Of a stretch of 8,160 nt of DNA, positions 1-8,160 are shown in pieces. The notes below the pieces were generated by a model. That model searched no databases. It worked only from the letters and a program-made list of their open reading frames with translations, and was not told the DNA's origin. The stretch is from a virus (lineage: Duplodnaviria > Heunggongvirae > Uroviricota > Caudoviricetes), in the IMG/VR virus record IMGVR_UViG_2671180778_000006, one strand, 5' to 3'. The position numbers and the translations under genes are program-made. The stretch's first letter is position 1; each line of letters starts with the position of its first letter.

Positions 1-131
1 TGAAGACGTAAAGCTTCAGTGATCCAGGTCCGGTGTTTCATACGATAGTGTCCATTAAAAATGATGGACATTATTTTTGTAGAGCCGGAGGAAACAGACC
101 AGACGGTTTAAATGAGCCGGTTACGAAAAAA

Positions 132-344
132 ATGGCAATTGTCGATAAAAAGGGTCTGGAGTACATTCCTAATATCGATCGTATGATCCGTGAGAAAGAA
201 TGTCGGGAGCTAACCACTCTTGCGAACAGCACACGCTGGAAGCTGGAGAAGGAAGGAAAATTTCCTAAGCGGATCAAGATTGGTTCCACTGCTGTTGCAT
301 ATCGTCTTTCAGAAGTGCAGGCATGGATTAGGGGAGAGTGGTAA
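132..344 (+). CDS. alpA: AlpA-family (prophage CP4-57 regulatory protein-like) HTH transcriptional regulator
   Basis: The C-terminal 55 residues (MIREKECRELTTLANSTRWKLEKEGKFPKRIKIGSTAVAYRLSEVQAWI) fit the AlpA/Phage_AlpA helix-turn-helix pattern. Start is ambiguous: ATG at 132 has no clear Shine-Dalgarno; the ORF track extends to a GTG at 33. Confidence 0.8.
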   Translation: MAIVDKKGLEYIPNIDRMIREKECRELTTLANSTRWKLEKEGKFPKRIKIGSTAVAYRLSEVQAWIRGEW

Positions 345-395: not shown

Positions 396-1745
396 TCACT
401 TAAATTCAAATACGTGCGTAGTTGATGAGATTATATAATTAGGTGGTAAGTATTGAACTATTTCTCCATCTTCTTCAAAAATATGAATAACTCTTGGGAA
501 TAATTCAGGGCGTATAGGATTTAATGCCTTCGGATTATGAAACATGTATATTGCTGTACACCATGGTTCTTGATATGAAGGTGCATTGACAAGAGCAGTA
601 AAAGGCATTGGGGTACAGCCTTCATCAGTTTTAATACCTCTAACGATGGATTTGACATTTTTTTGTTCAATCCCTGCCACTACTCCCATCCTATCAAATT
701 TTGGGATGGTGGCATGTGTCGCAAGTAATATGGCTGAGACATTCTCATTTTTATTAGAGCCGAAAAAATTAGATTGTATACTTCGATTTTCAAATAAATG
801 TTGTTCAATTTTACTTCCAGAATCCATATCTACACCATACAGATAGCTTTGTAGTGCTGGCATTGATATACTCATCGAAAATCTGCGTGAGTAATCGTGT
901 AAAGCAATAATGAAAGGCTTTCCTTTTGTATGATCTAGTTCCCAATAGCATAATTTTAAGGGTTCAGGTTTATGCCTAACTTTCTTTAATAGAGTGCGGG
1001 CAAATTTGAATGGCATTTGTTCTTTTACATATCTCTGAAGATCTTCTACTGCCTCATGATCAAGTATCAATTTCTCGGTAGGTTCCTCTTGTTCTGCAAC
1101 TGTGGCAGCTTCTACAGCAATATCAATGCCATTTTTTGAGATAATATAATCAGGTTGAGCATAATCTCTGCATATTACGAAATCCATTTCGTAGAAAACT
1201 GCGTTTAGATAAAGTTCGAATAAGCGAGAGTTAAATGAAGCACTCTGGAAATCTCTGATGAATATTCCATCAGGATCTTTACACCAATAAGCTAACTCTT
1301 GCATAACAATAAATGCAGGATAGTGTTTGGGTTCCTCAAGTAGCATTCTTAGATAAACGTTTTTTTTATGTTCTGGAACTTTGGCTAGGAATATTGAAAA
1401 TGCCGACTCTGATTCGTCACCCTGTATAAAACAACCGTTCTTGTGTAGTGATAATAGCTCTGGTATGGCTTTTTCCATATCAGTAATTAAATCATCTTTA
1501 GATTCACGGGATACAATTACTTTAATCGCTCTAAATTTTTTATCTAAATCCCTACCTAGAAATATAGCGTTGTAATCATTATCTATTTTACAAAAAACAA
1601 TTGTTGCTAAGATCGTGACATCATCCTTTATAAATTTGAACCAACAGATTTCCTCCGAAAAGGTTTTTACGTATGGTGTACGACCATAGAAAAATACATC
1701 AAATTGTTCTTTACTGATTTCTAGCATTTTGTGACTTGTTGTCAT
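396..1745 (-). CDS. Hypothetical 449-aa protein, family not recognised; candidate effector of a cargo (possibly anti-phage) operon
   Basis: Uninterrupted 1350-nt ORF with ATG start and an upstream AAGGA Shine-Dalgarno at 7-nt spacing. It starts 23 nt downstream of the RHH gene on the same strand. Composition is markedly AT-rich compared with the roughly balanced flanking genes. By eye there is no Walker A, HEPN Rx4-6H, HNH or transmembrane signature. Confidence 0.85.
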   Translation of the reverse strand: MTTSHKMLEISKEQFDVFFYGRTPYVKTFSEEICWFKFIKDDVTILATIVFCKIDNDYNAIFLGRDLDKKFRAIKVIVSRESKDDLITDMEKAIPELLSLHKNGCFIQGDESESAFSIFLAKVPEHKKNVYLRMLLEEPKHYPAFIVMQELAYWCKDPDGIFIRDFQSASFNSRLFELYLNAVFYEMDFVICRDYAQPDYIISKNGIDIAVEAATVAEQEEPTEKLILDHEAVEDLQRYVKEQMPFKFARTLLKKVRHKPEPLKLCYWELDHTKGKPFIIALHDYSRRFSMSISMPALQSYLYGVDMDSGSKIEQHLFENRSIQSNFFGSNKNENVSAILLATHATIPKFDRMGVVAGIEQKNVKSIVRGIKTDEGCTPMPFTALVNAPSYQEPWCTAIYMFHNPKALNPIRPELFPRVIHIFEEDGEIVQYLPPNYIISSTTHVFEFK

Positions 1746-1768: not shown

Positions 1769-1963
1769 TCAGCCTTTAGGTGTTATTCCTTGTTTTATTA
1801 GTTCGGCACGAGCCAGTTCTTTTAGCCAGTTACCTAAGCTCATCCCTTCTTTGGCAGCGACATTAACCATTTGTTCTTTTAATTCTGGGTTAATACGGAC
1901 TTGGAATGCTGGTGCTTTACCTGCACCTTTCGGTTGTTTATCACGTTGAATGATAGTTGACAT
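1769..1963 (-). CDS. Ribbon-helix-helix (Arc/MetJ/CopG-like) DNA-binding protein, probable operon regulator
   Basis: 64 aa. FQVRINPELKEQMVNVAAKEGMSLGNWLKELARAEL matches the beta-strand plus two-helix RHH pattern (compare Arc and Mnt repressors). ATG at 1961-1963 on the minus strand with AGGU about 9 nt upstream in the mRNA. First gene of the leftward operon. Confidence 0.7.
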   Translation of the reverse strand: MSTIIQRDKQPKGAGKAPAFQVRINPELKEQMVNVAAKEGMSLGNWLKELARAELIKQGITPKG

Positions 1964-2052: not shown

Positions 2053-2298
2053 CACATACAGGGCGTCTAACCACCAACGATAGCAACAGTATCGAGGTAG
2101 CTATGAGAAATCATACCACACACCCGCAAGGGCGGGATTCGCACAACCTGAATAAATACATCTGGCGTTTTATCGCCCTGAGCACCGCACAACCACGCGT
2201 AATACACATCGAGGCCGCCAGCGAACAGGAAGCCCGCCAGCAATCCCCAACTGGCTACGTGATGATATTCGCCGCCCGTATTCGTCAGGAGGTGTGCC

Positions 2299-2484
2299 GT
2301 GCTTAAAACCTTCCGTGTATTTGCCCGAGCTGTTAACCCACTGGGCCACACAATTGGTATCACTCAGAACGTGAAGGCTGTTAATGTTCAGACGGCTATT
2401 GCTGCGGTGAGAAGCGAATCATCAGAATATGGCTTATCACAAGTCATTATTTCAGCAGTGTATGAATTAAAAGAGGTGCATTAA
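2299..2484 (+). CDS. Hypothetical small protein (61 aa), first gene of the rightward replication operon
   Basis: GTG start preceded by a strong AGGAGG Shine-Dalgarno (2287-2292) at 6-nt spacing. Its stop overlaps the next start (TAATG). Confidence 0.5.
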   Translation: MLKTFRVFARAVNPLGHTIGITQNVKAVNVQTAIAAVRSESSEYGLSQVIISAVYELKEVH

Positions 2485-2914: not shown

Positions 2915-3214
2915 ATGGAAATGAAAAATTCTGGCTTTATTGCCAGCGGCCCCGCTCGGCCTGAATTTATGAACGGCGATATTTACCGCGATAAATACGG
3001 CGGCACGGTAACGATTAAAGGCGTGGCAGAACGGCGCATCACTTACCGCCGTGAGGGGTATAGCTATGACTGCGTGATGCCTGTTTATCAGTTCCGGCGT
3101 GATTTTTCCCTGGTATATGCCGCACCCCGCAGTAAGCCCATCAGCAGGGAAAAAGCGCGGGGAAACATCCAGAAAATGAAAAGCATGATTAACGCATTCA
3201 GGGGCAAAAAATGA
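2915..3214 (+). CDS. Hypothetical protein (99 aa) upstream of the primase
   Basis: ATG with GAGGA Shine-Dalgarno at 2901-2905. Its stop overlaps the primase start (ATGA at 3211-3214), implying translational coupling. Confidence 0.5.
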   Translation: MEMKNSGFIASGPARPEFMNGDIYRDKYGGTVTIKGVAERRITYRREGYSYDCVMPVYQFRRDFSLVYAAPRSKPISREKARGNIQKMKSMINAFRGKK

Positions 3215-4962
3215 AACTGGCACCGAACTTAAAAAAACAGCCACGCGACAGACTGACAGAGGTAATCATCTTTGCAGGTAGTGATGCGTGGAGCCATGCG
3301 AAAGAGTGGCGGGAATGGGCGGGTAAACATATTGCCGCCGACGATGTGCCGCCTGTCGTGCTGGCTGATGAGCAACTGAAAAATATCACCGATTACCGGA
3401 TCATTGATGAAGATCGTCAGTGTGTGCGTGTTTACCGCGCAGGACATATCACAGAGCACAGCATGACGCAGATTGTTACGTTACTGGCTGTGGCTGGAGT
3501 GAAGACCGTACACGAATACGCGGGGATTACTGACACCAGCCCAGTGGATTTATCCGAGCAGTTGCCGCGACTCAAAGAGGAATGCGAGCGTGGGGAAAGT
3601 CTGGTGCTTAATCTTCCGACGAAGCAAAAGGCGCAACTTTCACAGATGGCAGACAGTGAACGTGCACAACTACTTGCCGATCGCTTTGATGGTGTGTGTG
3701 TTCATGCAGAAAGTGAAATCGTCCACGTATGGCGCGGCGGGGTATGGTGTCCGGTCAGCACAATGGAGCTGAGCCGCGAAATGGTGGCGATCTATTCAGA
3801 GCACAGGGCCACGTTCAGCAAACGTGTAATCAATAACGCCGTGGAAGCGTTAAAAGTTATTGCCGACCCCATGGGGGAGCCGTCCGGTGATTTGCTACCG
3901 TTCACTAATGGTGTGCTTAACCTGAAAACGGGGGAATTTTCTCCGCACTCGCCGGAGCACTGGAGCACCACGCACAATGGCATTGAGTACACGCCACCAG
4001 TAGCAGGGGAAAACATCCGCGATAATGCGCCAAATTTCCATAAATGGCTTGAACATGCTGCAAGAAAAGACCCGCGTAAGATGATGCGTATATGTGCCGC
4101 GTTATACATGATTATGGCGAACCGCTACGACTGGCAGATGTTCATTGAGGCCACCGGAGACGGGGGAAGCGGTAAGAGTACATTTACCCATATTGCCACC
4201 CTGCTTGCTGGCAAACAGAACACCGTAAGCGCGGAGATGACATCACTCGATGATGCAGGAGGGCGCGCGCAGGTTGTCGGGAGTCGTCTTATCGTCCTTG
4301 CCGATCAGCCGAAATATACGGGGGAAGGCACGGGCATCAAGAAAATCACGGGAGGCGATCCCGTTGAAATTAACCCGAAATATGAGCAGCGATTCACGAC
4401 GATAATAAGGGCGGTGGTACTGGCAACCAATAACGACCCGATGATCTTTACCGAACGGGCCGGAGGTGTGTCACGCCGTCGGGTGATTTTCCGGTTCGAC
4501 AACATTGTAAGGGAGGACGAAAAAGACAAGGAATTACCGGAAAAGATAGCGGCAGAAATCCCCGTAATTATCCGCCGCTTGCTGGCTAATTTTGCTGCCC
4601 CTGAAAAGGCACGGGCTTTATTACTGGAACAGCGTGACGGTGATGAAGCTCTGGCAATAAAGCAGCAAACGGATCCGGTTGTTGAGCTTTGCGCGGCGCT
4701 GGAGTTTCTGGAGGAAGCTCGTGGGCTAATGATGGGCGGTGGTGGTGACACCGTGAAGTACACGACCAGAAACAGCCTTTACCGTGTCTATATGGCCTTC
4801 ATGGCATACACAGGAAAGGGGAAATGTTTGAGCGTGAATGAGTTCGGAAAGGCTATGAGGTCAGCGGCGAAAGTTTACGGATATGAATATATTACGCGAA
4901 AAGTTAAGGGAGTCACGCAGACCAACGCAACGACTACTGATGATTGCGATGCGTTTTTATAA
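3211..4962 (+). CDS. Phage/plasmid primase-helicase, P4 / D5-like family (satellite pri-rep replication initiator)
   Basis: 583 aa. Walker A GDGGSGKST (4156-4182) and Walker B-like LIVLAD. The LLPFTNGVLNLKTGEFSPHSPEHWST block is typical of the D5-N / P4-type primase C-terminal region. An iteron array follows directly downstream. No primase catalytic motif was recognised in the first ~170 residues. Confidence 0.8.
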   Translation: MKLAPNLKKQPRDRLTEVIIFAGSDAWSHAKEWREWAGKHIAADDVPPVVLADEQLKNITDYRIIDEDRQCVRVYRAGHITEHSMTQIVTLLAVAGVKTVHEYAGITDTSPVDLSEQLPRLKEECERGESLVLNLPTKQKAQLSQMADSERAQLLADRFDGVCVHAESEIVHVWRGGVWCPVSTMELSREMVAIYSEHRATFSKRVINNAVEALKVIADPMGEPSGDLLPFTNGVLNLKTGEFSPHSPEHWSTTHNGIEYTPPVAGENIRDNAPNFHKWLEHAARKDPRKMMRICAALYMIMANRYDWQMFIEATGDGGSGKSTFTHIATLLAGKQNTVSAEMTSLDDAGGRAQVVGSRLIVLADQPKYTGEGTGIKKITGGDPVEINPKYEQRFTTIIRAVVLATNNDPMIFTERAGGVSRRRVIFRFDNIVREDEKDKELPEKIAAEIPVIIRRLLANFAAPEKARALLLEQRDGDEALAIKQQTDPVVELCAALEFLEEARGLMMGGGGDTVKYTTRNSLYRVYMAFMAYTGKGKCLSVNEFGKAMRSAAKVYGYEYITRKVKGVTQTNATTTDDCDAFL

Positions 4963-5251: not shown

Positions 5252-5509
5252 ATGCACACATCAGGAAAACTGAACAAACATATAAAGCCACATTACCGCG
5301 CCCTTGATATGGCTGAACACTGGCTAAGGGTGGCGATTAAGGCAATAGACCGCAACGCCGGGGAAGGATACGCGAAAGCACATCCCGAACTGATAAGCGC
5401 ATTCATGACAACGGCGGCTGCAAACTTTGCCACGCTGACCGAACGGGAGATTGCTGAAGCGGAGGAAGTGACAACAATCAATATTAAGTCCGGAGAGCAG
5501 GCAGCATGA
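5252..5509 (+). CDS. Hypothetical protein (85 aa), translationally coupled to the SSB-like gene
   Basis: ATG with GAGGGGG upstream. Its stop overlaps the next start (ATGA at 5506-5509). No family recognised. Confidence 0.5.
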   Translation: MHTSGKLNKHIKPHYRALDMAEHWLRVAIKAIDRNAGEGYAKAHPELISAFMTTAAANFATLTEREIAEAEEVTTINIKSGEQAA

Positions 5510-5955
5510 CGGCGCAAATATCAGTTTACGGGCGGTTGGTGGACGACCCGCAGACAAAACAGACCAGCAAGGGCACCCCCATGACGCTGGCGCGTATGGC
5601 GGTATCACTGCCCTGCAGTCAGTCGGATGACGGTCTGGCGACGTTGTGGTTATCTGTCCTGGCGTTTGGCAGACAAGCCGACGCGCTGGCAAAGCATCAC
5701 AAAGGCGAACTCCTGAGCGTGGCGGGTAACATGCAGATGAGCCAGTGGACTGGACAGAACGGCGAAACGCGGCAGGGCTGGCAGGTTATCGCAGACAGCG
5801 TAATCAGTGCGCGATCGGTGCGACCGGGCGGCAAAAAAGGCCAACAGGGGCAGGCTACTGACGCACTGAACAGAGCAAAACAACAGGCAGATCAGCAAGG
5901 AAGCCAGCCACCAGAGGGAGATAATGAGCAATGGGGAGATGATATCCCGTTTTAA
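5506..5955 (+). CDS. Single-stranded DNA-binding protein-like (short OB-fold SSB with C-terminal DDIPF tail)
   Basis: 149 aa. The N-terminal pattern (VYGRLVDDPQ ... WLSVLAFGRQAD ... KGELLSVAGNMQMSQWTGQNGETRQGW) is consistent with the SSB OB fold. A Gly/Gln-rich linker and the terminal GDDIPF match the conserved acidic SSB tip. GGAGAG Shine-Dalgarno upstream. Confidence 0.7.
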   Translation: MTAQISVYGRLVDDPQTKQTSKGTPMTLARMAVSLPCSQSDDGLATLWLSVLAFGRQADALAKHHKGELLSVAGNMQMSQWTGQNGETRQGWQVIADSVISARSVRPGGKKGQQGQATDALNRAKQQADQQGSQPPEGDNEQWGDDIPF

Positions 5956-5973
5956 ATATTGCCAATAAAAAAA

Positions 5974-5997
5974 GCCGGAAAAAATAAATTTTCCGGC
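5974..5997 (-). terminator. Hairpin with a 7-nt U-run on the minus strand (intrinsic terminator oriented leftward)
   Basis: Stem GCCGGAAAA (5974-5982) pairs with TTTTCCGGC (5989-5997), 6-nt loop. An A7 run at 5967-5973 on the plus strand gives a U7 tail in the minus-strand RNA. There is no U-tract on the plus-strand side. Confidence 0.4.
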
Positions 5998-6107
5998 ATG
6001 CTACATAAATCCCGACCAAAGGGAGTGAAGATATTAACACTAATTGTCCGCACTGAAGTTGTCACCCCAAAACTTTATACAACATTGCACTCGGTTGCAT
6101 GTGTTCG

Positions 6108-6136
6108 CATGACAAATATCGGTGATAGCATATATC
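6108..6136 (+). promoter_or_regulatory. Putative sigma70 promoter upstream of the capsid gene
   Basis: -35 ATGACA (6108-6113), 17-nt spacer, -10 TATATC (6131-6136), about 35 nt upstream of the capsid ATG. Weak, by eye only. Confidence 0.25.
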
Positions 6137-6171
6137 CACAATTATTTTTAATGAATGCAAAGAGGATGCGT

Positions 6172-7212
6172 ATGGTTGATTTATATTCGCCTACCCAGCT
6201 TGTACAGGTGGTTAATGCTGTAGATGTACAAAAACAACTAAATGCGTTGTTTACCAGTTTGTTTTTTACTCGCTCGGTAATGTTTGGATCGCGCGATATT
6301 ATTCTTGATACAATCGACGATCCAAATATCCCAATTGCAGCGTTTTGTTCTCCTATGGTGGGTAGTAAAGTTTCACGTGACGAAGGGTACGAATCAAAAA
6401 CAATTCGTCCAGGCTATATGAAGCCGAAAAGCAGCATTGATCCAAATAAGTTAGCTGTGCGCCCTGCTGGTGTATCACCTGAGCAATACAATGCTTTTGG
6501 GGCGCGTAATATTAAAGTTAAACAGGCGATTGTAAATCAAGCTAAAGCTATTCGTGCACGTATTGAATGGCTTGCCGTTCAGGCAATCACAACGGGGAAA
6601 AATATCATTGAGGGCGATGGTATTGAACGTTATGAGCTGGACTGGAATATTAAACCACAAAATATCATCACTCAGTCTGGCGGTACTGAGTGGTCAGGTA
6701 AGGATAAAGAAACTTTTGATCCAAATGATGATATTGAGAGCTACGCAGAATTTAGTGAGGGCGTCACTAATATCATCATTATGGGCGGTAATGTATGGAA
6801 GAAATACCGTTCATTCAGAGCGATAAAAGAGGCTCTGGATACCCGTCGTGGTTCTAATTCCGAACTGGAAACGGCCCTTAAAGACCTTGGTGATTCGGTG
6901 AGTTTTAAAGGATATATGGGCGATGTTGCGATTGTTGTTTACAGCGGGCGTTATACCGACGAGGACGGAACTGAAAAACATTTCCTTGATCCTGATTTGA
7001 TGGTGCTTGGCAATACGGCTCTTCAGGGGATTGTCGCCTATGGCGGTATTCAGGATCCGGAGCTAATCCGAATGGGGCTGACTAAAGCCGAACTTGCACC
7101 GAAAAACTATATTGTGCCTGGTGATCCGGCTATTGAATATGTGCAGACACATTCAGCACCACAGCCAATACCGGCCCGCATCAATCGTTTTGTTACCGTT
7201 CGCATTGGCTAA
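6172..7212 (+). CDS. Major capsid protein, phage lambda gpE-like
   Basis: Near-full-length similarity to lambda gpE as recalled from memory, including ITQSGGTEWS, DTRRGSNSELETA, GDVAIVVYSG and MVLGNT blocks and a matching N-terminus (MVDLYSPTQL against lambda MSMYTTAQLL). Start placed at ATG 6172 with GAGG at 6-nt spacing; the ORF track's upstream extension to 5959 is not supported. Confidence 0.9.
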   Translation: MVDLYSPTQLVQVVNAVDVQKQLNALFTSLFFTRSVMFGSRDIILDTIDDPNIPIAAFCSPMVGSKVSRDEGYESKTIRPGYMKPKSSIDPNKLAVRPAGVSPEQYNAFGARNIKVKQAIVNQAKAIRARIEWLAVQAITTGKNIIEGDGIERYELDWNIKPQNIITQSGGTEWSGKDKETFDPNDDIESYAEFSEGVTNIIIMGGNVWKKYRSFRAIKEALDTRRGSNSELETALKDLGDSVSFKGYMGDVAIVVYSGRYTDEDGTEKHFLDPDLMVLGNTALQGIVAYGGIQDPELIRMGLTKAELAPKNYIVPGDPAIEYVQTHSAPQPIPARINRFVTVRIG

Positions 7213-7221
7213 GGGGGAGCA

Positions 7222-7563
7222 ATGGCTACTCATTACACTGAACTCATGGCTGGCACTGAAGCACTGGTGACTACGCTGGGGATATTTTCAGCTAATAAAG
7301 GGGTAATTCCTGCATTTACGCCACTGATGCAGGAAGATGCAACAGGTGCACTGGTGGTATGGGATGGTTCGAGCGTAGGTAAAGCGGTTTATGTTTCCGC
7401 TGTACAAATCGACACCGCGAAAAAAACACAGGCTCAGGTCTATAAGACAGGTGTCTTAAATGTTGATGCTCTGAACTGGCCTGAGTCTGTAAAAGAACTG
7501 TCAGTAAAGATTGCAGCGTTTGTTGGCTCAGGTATTTCTGTTCAGCCGCTGGCTCGTGTGTAA
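7222..7563 (+). CDS. Head decoration protein, phage lambda gpD-like
   Basis: 113 aa. AFTPLMQEDATGALVVWDGS ... VYKTGVLNVDALNWPE ... AAFVGSGISV aligns with recalled lambda gpD ([20 protein letters not shown] ... FYKSGTFRYEDVLWPE ... TAFAGTAISIV). GGGGGAG Shine-Dalgarno upstream. Confidence 0.8.
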   Translation: MATHYTELMAGTEALVTTLGIFSANKGVIPAFTPLMQEDATGALVVWDGSSVGKAVYVSAVQIDTAKKTQAQVYKTGVLNVDALNWPESVKELSVKIAAFVGSGISVQPLARV

Positions 7564-7574
7564 AGGGGGATACA

Positions 7575-7958
7575 ATGCAAAATGATTACAATGACCTTAA
7601 GCCAATTGCCGAAATGATGTACCCGAATCCAGCTGTAGAGGAATTAAAAGCTATCGCTGACAAAATGTGTTTAAGCGAGCGCCTTGTTGATATGAATCAG
7701 GTGATGGAAATTACAACCCTGAGTCGGCGTACACTGCTAAACCTTGAGGCTAGTGGAGAGTTCCCGGAGCGTGTGCAGGTTACGGAAGGGCGTAAGGCCT
7801 GGTATTTAAGTGAAGTGATCGACTGGATAAATAATATTCCTCGCGCTTCTGAATATTGCCGCGTACCTGTCCCAAAAAAGCCAGATGCGGCGCTATGCCT
7901 CAAGATTGAGCGTGTACGCCGCAATGCACGGGATGGTCGCTATAAGCTGATTGGTTGA
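7575..7958 (+). CDS. AlpA-like HTH domain protein (127 aa); regulator or candidate packaging-specificity factor
   Basis: Residues about 40-95 (MNQVMEITTLSRRTLLNLEASGEFPERVQVTEGRKAWYLSEVIDWI) fit the AlpA-type HTH pattern, with extra N- and C-terminal extensions. AGGGGG Shine-Dalgarno upstream. Sits immediately 5' of the cos site. Confidence 0.6.
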   Translation: MQNDYNDLKPIAEMMYPNPAVEELKAIADKMCLSERLVDMNQVMEITTLSRRTLLNLEASGEFPERVQVTEGRKAWYLSEVIDWINNIPRASEYCRVPVPKKPDAALCLKIERVRRNARDGRYKLIG

Positions 7959-7965
7959 TGAAATT

Positions 7966-8160
7966 AGGGCCCGCTCTGGCTGGCGGGTCCTTTCCGGCGA
8001 TCTGACAGGCTACGGGGCGTCAGGCGCGCGGATTTTCGCTATTTATGAAAATTTTCCGGTTTAAGGCGTTTCCGTTCTTCTTCGTCGTAACTTAATGTTT
8101 TTATTTAAAATACCCCCTGAAAAGAAAGGAAACGACAGGTGCTGAAAGCGAGCTTTTTGG
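7966..8160 (+). other. Lambda-type cos site (cosQ-side flank, cosN at about 8015-8026, cosB R3/I1/R2 region) running off the window end
   Basis: 8027-8160 is nearly identical to my recollection of the lambda left end (CGCGGGTTTTCGCTATTTATGAAAATTTTCCGGTTTAAGGCGTTTCCGTTCTTCTTCGTCATAACTTAATG...GAAAGGAAACGACAGGTGCTGAAAGCGAG). 7971-8014 resembles the lambda right end (...GGGTCCTTTCCGGTGATCCGACAGGTTACG). The 12 nt at the cosN position read GGGCGTCAGGCG against lambda GGGCGGCGACCT. Confidence 0.8.

What the first reader, a model, noticed from the sequence alone, without database searches (positions are those of the whole stretch)
6172..7563. Lambda gpE-like capsid and gpD-like decoration genes inside a satellite, in reversed order and without a visible portal, protease or scaffold
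Both proteins align well with lambda E and D as I recall them, but here the order is E then D (lambda is D then E). They are preceded by an SSB-like gene rather than head-assembly genes and followed by an HTH gene and cos. A satellite that encodes only the shell and decoration proteins but uses a helper-type cos would probably build its own, possibly smaller, capsids around helper portal, terminase and tail. This differs from classical E. coli PICIs, which rely on helper capsid protein, and from capsid-forming PICIs, which encode a fuller head module. More head genes could lie beyond the window.
Basis: partly seen in the sequence, partly recalled or inferred. Interest (0 to 1): 0.65.

Follow-up and report, generated by a model that had tools for sequence, protein, structure and literature searches.

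The report
Known PICI capsid and decoration genes
The two genes are real relatives of the phage lambda shell (E) and decoration (D) proteins carried by an E. coli phage satellite, but the same pair was reported in the classic E. coli satellite in 2018 and in this satellite type, which sits inside its helper's capsid gene, in 2023, so the finding is ordinary and only the genes' function is still unknown.

Summary
Window 6172-7212 encodes a full-length Phage_cap_E capsid protein ("E*", 44% identical to lambda E). Window 7222-7563 encodes a gpD/SHP-type decoration protein ("D*", 38% identical to lambda D). An SSB gene precedes them, and an AlpA-like HTH gene and a lambda-type cos follow.

The same E-then-D pair is in the prototype E. 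coli PICI EcCICFT073 (c1499/c1500; c1499 matches PDB 3BQW). There, deleting either gene changed neither transfer nor interference, and all packaged DNA was phage-sized (Fillol-Salom 2018).

The window belongs to the "11capE" family of helper-embedded PICIs (Tommasini 2023). All four complete E. coli copies I examined, plus copies in Cedecea and Kosakonia, lie inside the lambda-type capsid gene E of a prophage and split it at codon 82. None carries a portal or protease of its own.

My additions:
- E*/D* form a separate lineage, found only in satellites in every context I read (8 lineages). It spans 52-99% identity, and no phage protein exceeds 44%.
- The order is always E then D.
- Purifying selection is strong (omega about 0.02-0.1).
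- The pair is also present in satellites that interrupt the portal gene or sit at fis.

The genes are therefore functional, but they are not simply a backup for the split gene. Already known; low interest.

The parts
1..124 (-). Terminal ~124 bases of an IS66-family (ISCro1-like) insertion sequence, abutting alpA where relatives have the 3' end of the satellite integrase
   Evidence: 100% identical to IS66-like element ends in more than 1,400 E. coli genomes. The IS layout is seen in L016. Homology to the satellite family starts only at window 125.
132..344 (+). alpA (satellite regulator/excisionase)
   Evidence: PF05930 E=6.6e-15; 96-99% nucleotide identity to the alpA of complete copies.
396..1745 (-). 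Variable-zone cargo: PD-T7-1 anti-phage defence protein (449 aa)
   Evidence: PADLOC PDLC04073 E=1.3e-153 over the full length. Only 2 of 5,426 E. coli genomes carry this variant, and other copies have different cargo at this position.
1769..1963 (-). HicB/RHH-like small DNA-binding protein
   Evidence: PF05534 E=5e-4, just below the Pfam cut-off. RefSeq annotates the homologue as a HicB-family antitoxin.
2109..2306 (+). Icd-like cell-division inhibitor homologue
   Evidence: Assigned by position from the RefSeq annotation of L001 8210-8407, using an offset of 6101.
2915..3214 (+). DUF4222 protein
   Evidence: PF13973 E=9e-24.
3211..4962 (+). D5-type primase-helicase (satellite replication)
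   Evidence: PF08706, PF19263 and PF03288.
5252..5509 (+). 85-aa protein of unknown function
   Evidence: phrog_1231 E=3e-48.
5506..5955 (+). SSB
   Evidence: PF00436 E=2.1e-15.
6172..7212 (+). E*: satellite-lineage major capsid protein (lambda gpE family; c1499 family)
   Evidence: PF03864 E=2e-41. PDB 3BQW E=2.4e-121 and lambda gpE E=5.9e-77. Omega 0.02-0.07 across five genera.
7222..7563 (+). D*: satellite-lineage head decoration protein (lambda gpD / phage 21 SHP family; c1500 family)
   Evidence: PF02924 E=4.4e-15. 1TD0 E=6e-16. Omega 0.07-0.11.
7575..7958 (+). HTH2: 127-aa AlpA-like winged-HTH protein, conserved together with E* and D*
   Evidence: PF05930 E=7.6e-9. phrog_2790 E=1e-49. 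64-69% identity in four other genera, always directly after D*. No similarity to RppA or c1501.
7983..8160 (+). cos: the cosN 12-nt overhang equivalent is 8015-8026 (GGGCGTCAGGCG); helper-type cosB is 8027-8160
   Evidence: 97% identical to lambda 13-147 and 94% identical to the helper prophage's own cos. The overhang differs from helper and lambda at 5 of 12 positions.

Best explanation
The window is most of a Gram-negative phage-inducible chromosomal island (PICI) of the 'helper-embedded' 11capE type. Genes 6172-7212 and 7222-7563 are its late-zone pair. E* is an intact HK97-fold major capsid protein and D* is its matching trimeric decoration protein. They are orthologous in kind to c1499 and c1500 of the prototype EcCICFT073.

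Shown: the family assignments; the conserved E*-D*-HTH2-cos module; the position of complete relatives inside, and co-oriented with, the lambda-type capsid gene E of a Qin-like prophage, with a 9-10 bp att identity block whose recombination would restore E exactly; the helper-type cosB; and strong purifying selection on E* and D*.

Inferred mechanism: after induction, E* and D* are expressed as one operon with HTH2, probably by read-through of helper late or satellite transcription. They assemble on the helper's portal and protease/scaffold (B, C/Nu3) into phage-sized shells. These shells are made of E* alone or mixed with helper E, and D* cements the E* lattice, because helper D is only about 40% identical to D*. 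The helper terminase fills these shells from the satellite's helper-type cos with about four tandem copies of the ~11-kb element (42-45 kb). While the satellite is still integrated, E* is the only complete capsid gene in the composite, so the pair shifts early head assembly towards satellite-supplied subunits. The role is probably conditional or redundant, since the nearest tested relatives are dispensable for transfer. My probabilities: identity of the genes and element family about 0.95; this particular copy being helper-embedded about 0.7; the structural co-assembly role about 0.45. The single confidence figure given for this explanation (0.8) refers mainly to the identity of the genes and the element family.
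For: Family assignment.

Same pair and order in EcCICFT073: L004 669-1724 and 1736-2071. The window's E* matches PDB 3BQW at E=2.4e-121, and 3BQW has the same length (351 aa) as c1499; my attribution of 3BQW to CFT073 is from memory and was not checked with a tool.

Nesting in capsid gene E: four of four complete E. coli copies, plus Cedecea and Kosakonia. The N-terminal fragment is 82 aa, 100% identical to lambda E residues 1-82. The att block is A(A/G)CC(C/G)AAGCA, and joining the two fragments recreates lambda's KPKHE codons. This matches the published E:Phage_cap_E_80 site with 201 instances.

Distinct lineage: among 50,697 phage records, none has an MCP more than 44% identical to E*. The protein database shows a clade from 99% down to 52% identity (772 to 360 bits), then a gap to phage-type E at 44% or less (290 bits or fewer). 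Every member whose context I read is in a satellite with the order E* then D*.

Selection: all copies are intact and of identical length in five genera. dS is saturated and dN is 0.05-0.14, giving omega 0.02-0.07 for E* and 0.07-0.11 for D*. About 1,900 full-length database members compare with a few dozen truncated ones.

Operon structure: strong ribosome-binding sites and spacers of 9 and 11 nt.

cos: 97% identical to lambda cosB and 94% to the helper's own cos.

Element length: 10.4-11.2 kb.

Literature: an E. coli PICI is packaged as phage-length concatemers.
Against: The window's own ends are not visible. Its left edge is an IS66-family end where the integrase should be, so this copy may be immobilised, or not embedded at all.

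The only functional data on the family are negative. Deleting c1499 or c1500 changed neither transfer nor lambda interference. Nothing here shows that E* enters particles.

E* is only about 43% identical to its helper's E, so its compatibility with helper Nu3 scaffold and portal is unproven.

Some relatives carry their own C/Nu3-like gene (L013) or a Nu3-like fragment (c1501) next to D*. This may mean that E* needs a matching scaffold, which this element lacks.

No sigma-70-like promoter was detected upstream of E* on the + strand, so expression is assumed and not shown.
Confidence: 0.8

Rival explanations
1. One reading: the satellite builds its own smaller capsids from E* and D* around the helper's portal, terminase and tail, sized for one ~11-kb genome, as Ccm does for SaPIbov5 and Sid does for P4.
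For: E* is a complete MCP homologue in a cos satellite, as Ccm is (abstract, PMC8569155). The Pasteurella PICI PmCI172 carries an MCP homologue and makes small capsids. E* and D* are under strong constraint. This has not been tested for the 11capE family.
Against: For EcCICFT073, which has the same gene pair, all packaged DNA was phage-sized, and deleting c1499 or c1500 affected neither transfer nor interference. Element length is close to one quarter of a lambda genome (10.4-11.2 kb), which fits multimer packaging in T=7 heads. E* aligns end to end with lambda E, with no obvious insertion or truncation.
Confidence: 0.12
2. Backup-copy model (suggested by Tommasini et al.): the satellite captured E, and D with it, from a helper so that an intact capsid gene replaces the helper gene it interrupts until the satellite excises.
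For: In the capE site the helper's E is physically split while the satellite's E* is intact. The authors propose this. The capsid gene is both the most frequent integration target and the most frequent late gene in PICIs.
Against: The pair is equally present in satellites that interrupt something else or nothing: the Edwardsiella element lies inside the portal gene yet carries E* and D* and no portal gene; the Lelliottia element is at fis; and EcCICFT073 lies next to phoQ. E* is not a recent capture, because it is only 43% identical to its own helper's E and no phage comes closer. D is not interrupted, yet D* is always co-carried.
Confidence: 0.2
3. Interference or decoy model: E* and D* poison or dilute helper capsid assembly, or alter how host defences sense capsid protein, rather than serving as required building blocks.
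For: Strong constraint with no transfer phenotype. In the EcCICFT073 deletion test Rpp was still present, so a second, redundant interference activity would have been masked. The window lineage lacks Rpp and has helper-identical cosB, so it has no known interference mechanism of its own.
Against: There is no direct evidence. The c1499 and c1500 deletions did not relieve interference. No PADLOC model matches either protein.
Confidence: 0.13
4. The genes are functionless remnants of a decayed lambdoid prophage head module, and the region is a defective prophage rather than a satellite.
For: Lambdoid head genes surround the element in complete copies. The EcCICFT073 knock-outs show no phenotype. 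This copy carries an IS insertion.
Against: The element is bounded by att repeats and has its own integrase, alpA, primase and cos. Both ORFs are intact with identical length in five genera, and omega is at most 0.1 with saturated dS. The lineage is distinct from all phage E genes.
Confidence: 0.05

Closest known systems
Eco567.11capE and the E:Phage_cap_E_80 group of helper-embedded PICIs (Tommasini, Mageeney & Williams 2023, PMC10111431)
   Same: Size is about 11 kb and gene order is the same: int, alpA, variable zone, DUF4222-primase, SSB, capsid gene, cos. Relatives 97-99% identical to the window sit at the same site in lambda-type gene E, with the same short att identity block, and are co-oriented with the late operon.
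   Different: In the window an IS66-family end replaces the integrase-alpA junction. The variable zone carries PD-T7-1. The paper mentions only 'its own capsid gene' and does not discuss the decoration gene, the E-then-D order, the separate lineage or selection.
EcCICFT073 c1499 (capsid; the 351-aa chain of PDB 3BQW is of equal length and matches the window's E* at E=2.4e-121) and c1500 (head decoration) (Fillol-Salom et al. 2018, PMC6092414)
   Same: The same two families in the same E-then-D order, followed by a small gene and cos, in a PICI with alpA and a primase. Identity to the window's proteins is 54% and 55%.
   Different: EcCICFT073 is chromosomal (next to phoQ) and not helper-embedded. 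Its cos lacks helper cosB and it uses RppA (c1503). The window lineage has helper-type cosB, no Rpp, and an AlpA-like HTH2 in place of the Nu3-like c1501.
Phage lambda head genes D and E
   Same: The same Pfam families with full-length alignments.
   Different: Identity is only 44% and 38%. The order is reversed. There is no adjacent portal, protease/scaffold or FI gene within the element.
Capsid-forming PICIs (cf-PICIs)
   Same: They are satellites that encode their own capsid protein.
   Different: cf-PICIs encode a full head and packaging module (portal, protease, head-tail adaptors and connectors). This element has only the MCP and the decoration protein.
SaPIbov5 Ccm
   Same: An MCP homologue encoded by a cos-packaged satellite.
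   Different: Ccm redirects capsid size and shape. The closest tested relative of E* (c1499) showed no size redirection.

Membership tests
Gram-negative PICI (Fillol-Salom 2018) | alpA regulator next to the integrase at the left end, with genes mostly unidirectional | tested here: met
   alpA lies at 132-344 (PF05930). The int gene is not in the window but lies immediately upstream of alpA in all complete relatives.
Gram-negative PICI (Fillol-Salom 2018) | Own primase/replication module | tested here: met
   D5_N/DUF5906/Pox_D5 primase-helicase at 3211-4962, plus SSB.
Gram-negative PICI (Fillol-Salom 2018) | Small size (10-20 kb) and no tail, lysis or large-terminase genes | tested here: met
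   Complete relatives are 10.4-11.2 kb between att blocks. No such genes lie inside them.
Gram-negative PICI (Fillol-Salom 2018) | cos site recognised by the helper packaging machinery | tested here: met
   Sequence-level match only: 97% identical to lambda cosB and 94% to the helper's cos. Function was not tested.
Gram-negative PICI (Fillol-Salom 2018) | Helper-dependent induction and high-frequency transfer | not testable with these tools
   This needs induction and transduction assays.
Helper-embedded PICI, site E:Phage_cap_E_80 (Tommasini 2023) | [quoted passage not shown] | tested here: inconclusive
   Met in six relatives. The window ends before either att site, and its left edge is an IS66 end.
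Helper-embedded PICI, site E:Phage_cap_E_80 (Tommasini 2023) | Integrase of the HE-PICI clade | tested here: inconclusive
   No integrase sequence is in the window. Relatives encode a 411-aa tyrosine recombinase, 83-88% identical between genera.
Phage_cap_E (lambda gpE) major capsid proteins | Full-length match to PF03864 above the gathering score | tested here: met
   142.5 bits against a cut-off of 22.9, covering profile positions 4-327 of 329.
Phage_cap_E (lambda gpE) major capsid proteins | Forms the icosahedral shell of a virion | not testable with these tools
   There is no particle data for E* or c1499. The PDB description of the related 3BQW chain says only 'putative capsid protein of prophage'.
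HDPD (lambda gpD / phage 21 SHP) decoration proteins | Match to PF02924 above the gathering score | tested here: met
   56.3 bits against a cut-off of 29.1. 1TD0 at E=6e-16.
Capsid-forming PICI (cf-PICI) | Own portal, protease and head-tail connector genes in addition to the MCP | tested here: not met
   None in the window and none in complete relatives.
Rpp-type packaging redirection (Fillol-Salom 2019) | An Rpp protein and a cosB different from the helper's | tested here: not met
   No RppA homologue in the window or in L001-L005. HTH2 is unrelated to RppA. cosB is helper-identical.
P4-like satellites | Sid external scaffold, Psu decoration and the Delta activator | tested here: not met
   No such Pfam or PHROG hits among the window's ORFs. 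The decoration protein is gpD-type and not Psu.

The most novel reading that the evidence does not exclude
In capE-embedded satellites the helper cannot make its own shell protein while the satellite is integrated. The satellite-lineage E*/D* pair, which is old, distinct from every phage E/D and tightly constrained, would then be the actual shell of the first particles made. That would be a capsid swap, in which a satellite supplies the major structural protein for heads built on helper portal, scaffold, terminase and tail, possibly for helper genomes too. Satellite and helper would then depend on each other, rather than one simply parasitising the other.
Probability: 0.2. Interest if true: 0.6.

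Novelty: already known. Interest (0 to 1): 0.2.

Why it matters
As stated, the finding adds little. Capsid and head-decoration genes in E. coli PICIs were reported and knocked out in 2018, and this element type, with its own capsid gene inside the helper's capsid gene, was described in 2023.

One real gap remains. The function of the c1499/c1500-type pair is unknown, even though it is the most common late gene in Gram-negative PICIs. My analysis shows it is a separate lineage, found in satellites wherever its context was checked, kept under selection as strong as that on a working capsid gene, and carried regardless of where the satellite integrates. That conflicts with the published lack of phenotype and points to a conditional role worth testing. 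Such a test would not resolve a long-standing question, and the result here would not surprise a specialist.

Tried and rejected
1. Exact source genome: no E. coli complete genome holds 80% or more of the window in one place. The window is a mosaic of the L001-type backbone and the L005-type variable zone.

2. Rfam scan of the window for C4/isrK-type immunity RNAs reported in some PICIs: no hit at gathering score.

3. Promoter and terminator scan of 5400-8160: counts did not exceed shuffled controls. There is no + strand sigma-70 site before E*. The hairpin at 5974-5997 scores as a terminator only on the - strand.

4. HTH2 as an Rpp analogue: no similarity to RppA or c1501, so this stays speculative.

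5. Nu1/TerS remnant after cos in the window lineage: none detected in L001, L002 or L005. L003, L008 and L010 do have a Nu1-like gene there. PDB has no match for it.

6. The 311-aa gene beyond the window (L001 14985-15920) as a hidden head gene: no Pfam or PADLOC hit, only phrog_21267 of unknown function.

7. The search for related loci in one-genome-per-species contigs returned only four loci, so my cross-genus sample is small.

8. Literature search for later functional work on c1499 or 3BQW: nothing relevant.

9. Defective-prophage reading: rejected on att structure and selection.

10. I did not run structure prediction, because a crystal structure of a closely matching homologue (3BQW, E=2.4e-121) and lambda gpE cryo-EM models already match end to end.
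Full report
**Observation**

The window has two tightly spaced + strand ORFs at the stated coordinates.
- ORF 6172-7212 (346 aa) matches Pfam Phage_cap_E at E=2.1e-41 over almost the whole profile. It matches lambda gpE structures at E=5.9e-77.
- ORF 7222-7563 (113 aa) matches the gpD family HDPD at E=4.4e-15. It matches phage 21 SHP at 6e-16 and lambda gpD at 1e-11.
- Global identity is 43.8% to lambda E and 38.5% to lambda D.
SSB lies at 5506-5955 and an AlpA-type HTH gene ("HTH2") at 7575-7958.
- The cos region follows. Window 8027-8160 is 97% identical to lambda bases 13-147, and the alignment continues across the nick site.

I refer to the two proteins as E* and D*.

**What the element is**

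The rest of the window is a typical Gram-negative PICI backbone: alpA, a variable zone, DUF4222, a D5-type primase-helicase and SSB.

Megablast against 5,426 complete E. coli genomes finds 80% or more of bases 5900-8160 in 367 genomes. I opened four complete copies that are 97-99% identical to the window (L001, L002, L003, L005). In all four the element has its own tyrosine integrase and sits inside the major capsid gene of a Qin-like lambdoid prophage. The arrangement is terL, W, portal, S49 protease, D, an 82-codon N-terminal E fragment, then the satellite, then the 263-codon C-terminal E fragment, FI, FII and the tail genes.

The two junctions share the block A(A/G)CC(C/G)AAGCA. Joining the fragments recreates lambda's ...GYVKPKHEVNP... 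reading frame, and the N-terminal fragment is 100% identical to lambda E residues 1-82.

Copies in Cedecea and Kosakonia are embedded in the same way.

This is the published "helper-embedded PICI" Eco567.11capE, site E:Phage_cap_E_80. The paper reports 201 instances, a 10-bp identity block, and an element that "bears its own capsid gene" (PMC10111431).

**Is the capsid and decoration pair unusual for an E. coli PICI?**

No. [quoted passage not shown] In CFT073 they lie in the same E-then-D order, followed by a small gene and cos (L004 669-1724 and 1736-2071).

The best PDB match of the window's E* is 3BQW, at E=2.4e-121. It is a 351-aa "putative capsid protein of prophage", the same length as c1499. 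That 3BQW is the CFT073 protein is my recollection and was not checked with a tool. E* and D* are 54% and 55% identical to c1499 and c1500.

That paper reports three relevant results. Deleting c1499 or c1500 changed neither interference with lambda nor transfer by the resident helper. All packaged DNA was phage-sized. The island is therefore packaged as multimers in full-sized heads. Tommasini et al. add that a capsid gene is present in 21 of 29 reference Gram-negative PICIs.

The small-capsid idea is contradicted in the nearest tested relative, though it has not been tested for this family.

**Head genes beyond the window**

After cos, the complete copies hold one of the following:
- a 311-aa protein of unknown function (L001, L002);
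- a Nu1-like small terminase plus a 93-aa protein (L003);
- a restriction endonuclease (L005).

attR follows in each case. None has a portal, protease or scaffold gene inside the element, so it is not a cf-PICI.

The helper's full head module does surround the element in normal order. Here it reflects nesting, not decay.

**What I can add on E* and D***

1. Lineage. No phage in a 50,697-record collection encodes an MCP more than 44% identical to E*. In the large protein database the relatives form a clade running from 99% down to 52% identity (772 to 360 bits). A gap then separates them from phage-type E proteins at 44% or less (290 bits or fewer).
2. Context. Every clade member whose context I read is in a satellite with E* followed by D*:
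   - the window family;
   - CFT073;
   - Kluyvera, Superficieibacter, Cedecea and Kosakonia;
   - Edwardsiella;
   - Lelliottia.

   The nearest phage-type protein sits in an ordinary Nu1-A-W-portal-protease-D-E module.
3. Selection. Across five genera both ORFs keep exactly 346 and 113 codons. Synonymous sites are saturated while dN is 0.05-0.14 for E*. Omega is about 0.02-0.07 for E* and 0.07-0.11 for D*. Within E. coli the few differences are mostly synonymous.
4. Independence from the integration site. The Edwardsiella element splits the portal gene yet carries E* and D* and no portal gene. The Lelliottia element sits at fis and carries E*, D*, a C-like S49 protease and an Rpp-like protein. 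EcCICFT073 lies next to phoQ.

The pair is therefore an old, constrained satellite module. It is neither a recent capture from the helper nor simply a spare copy of the gene the satellite interrupts.

**Packaging signals**

The window's cosB is essentially the helper's. It is 94% identical to the cos upstream of nohA in L002 and L005. No Rpp or Nu1 homologue is present in this lineage. EcCICFT073 differs on both counts: it lacks helper cosB and relies on RppA (RppA identified at L004 2660-3094).

The elements are 10.4-11.2 kb long. Four tandem copies make 42-45 kb, within lambda's packaging range by my own knowledge of lambda packaging limits. This fits the published multimer packaging.

**Most likely mechanism**

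The identity of the genes and of the element family is close to certain. The function is inferred.

I think the most likely role is structural. E*, D* and HTH2 form one operon, with strong ribosome-binding sites and spacers of 9 and 11 nt. They would be expressed late. E* would assemble on the helper's portal and scaffold into phage-sized shells, and D* would stabilise the E* lattice, because the helper's D is only about 40% identical to D*. The helper terminase would fill these heads from the satellite cos.

In the capE configuration, E* is the only intact capsid gene until the satellite excises. This would bias early assembly towards satellite-supplied subunits. The published knock-outs show the role cannot be essential in EcCICFT073 with its helpers, so it is probably conditional or redundant.

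I put about 0.45 on this structural role. The rivals are:
- the backup-copy model, 0.2;
- interference or decoy, 0.13;
- size redirection, 0.12;
- functionless remnant, 0.05.

**Caveats**

The window does not include the integrase or either att site. Bases 1-124 are the end of an IS66-family element that replaces the int-alpA junction. This copy may therefore be immobilised, and its embedding in a helper is inferred from relatives.

My cross-genus sample is small: eight lineages. Expression of E* and D* was not shown, and no + strand sigma-70-like promoter was found upstream.

**Verdict**

Both the genes and the element type are already described in the literature. What remains open is what the pair does. 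Interest is low.

Noticed in passing
window 1-124: The window starts with the terminal ~124 bases of an IS66-family (ISCro1-like) insertion sequence. It abuts alpA exactly where relatives have the integrase stop codon. The satellite's int-alpA junction is therefore disrupted in this copy, and the annotated alpA start of relatives is lost (an in-frame ATG remains at 132).
   Followed up: partly
window 396-1745 (- strand): The 449-aa ORF in the variable zone is the anti-phage defence protein PD-T7-1 (PADLOC E=1.3e-153). Only 2 of 5,426 E. coli genomes carry this variant at this position. Other copies carry DUF2971/SWIM proteins or other cargo there, so the zone behaves as a defence-cargo hotspot.
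   Followed up: partly
window 8015-8026; also L001 ~14116-14127 and L005 ~21325-21336: The 12-nt cohesive-end equivalent of the satellite cos is GGGCGTCAGGCG. It differs at 5 of 12 positions from lambda and from the helper prophages' own GGGCGGCGACCT, although the flanking cosN arms and cosB are nearly identical. Satellite and helper ends would not anneal to each other.
   Followed up: partly
L003 16413-16955; L008 ~12009-12509; L010 ~12020-12517: Some members of the same satellite family carry their own Nu1-like small terminase just after cos (38-50% identical to lambda Nu1). Their cos diverges from the window's after about 106 bases. The window lineage has helper-identical cosB and no TerS. 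These look like two alternative packaging-specificity solutions within one family.
   Followed up: partly
L004 2084-2497 (EcCICFT073 c1501) and L013 11409-12752: c1501, the gene after c1500 in EcCICFT073, shows 37% identity over 83 aa to the C-terminal (Nu3/scaffold) part of the resident prophage's S49 protease gene. The Lelliottia fis PICI has a full S49 gene in that position. The satellite module thus appears as E-D-C, the reverse of lambda's C-D-E, and has been variously reduced.
   Followed up: partly
L011 765-1625 and 11908-12681 (Edwardsiella tarda): A related satellite is inserted in the portal gene of a lambdoid prophage, leaving portal fragments of 286 and 257 aa. It still carries the E*-D* pair and no portal gene.
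   Followed up: partly
window 7210-7224; protein P0005: E* and D* are in the same reading frame, separated only by TAA plus 9 nt. One database protein (P0005, 463 aa, PF03864+PF02924, 85% identical, a single 3.2-kb contig) is exactly the read-through fusion. It may be a mutant or a sequencing error.
   Followed up: no
window 7575-7958: The AlpA-like HTH2 protein (phrog_2790, E=1e-49) is conserved immediately after D* and before cos in five genera, at 64-69% identity. Its role is unknown: it could be a late regulator, a second excisionase or a cos-binding factor. It is unrelated to RppA.
   Followed up: partly
window 5974-5997: A 9-bp GC-rich hairpin lies just after SSB. It has a T-run only on the - strand, so it scores as a terminator for transcription antisense to E*, although no - strand gene lies nearby.
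   Followed up: no
L002 20000-25477: In strain 10 (NZ_CP048330) several helper tail genes (FII, Z, G, T, H) are annotated as frameshifted, so at least some host prophages of this satellite may be defective. I did not check whether these are sequencing errors.
   Followed up: no
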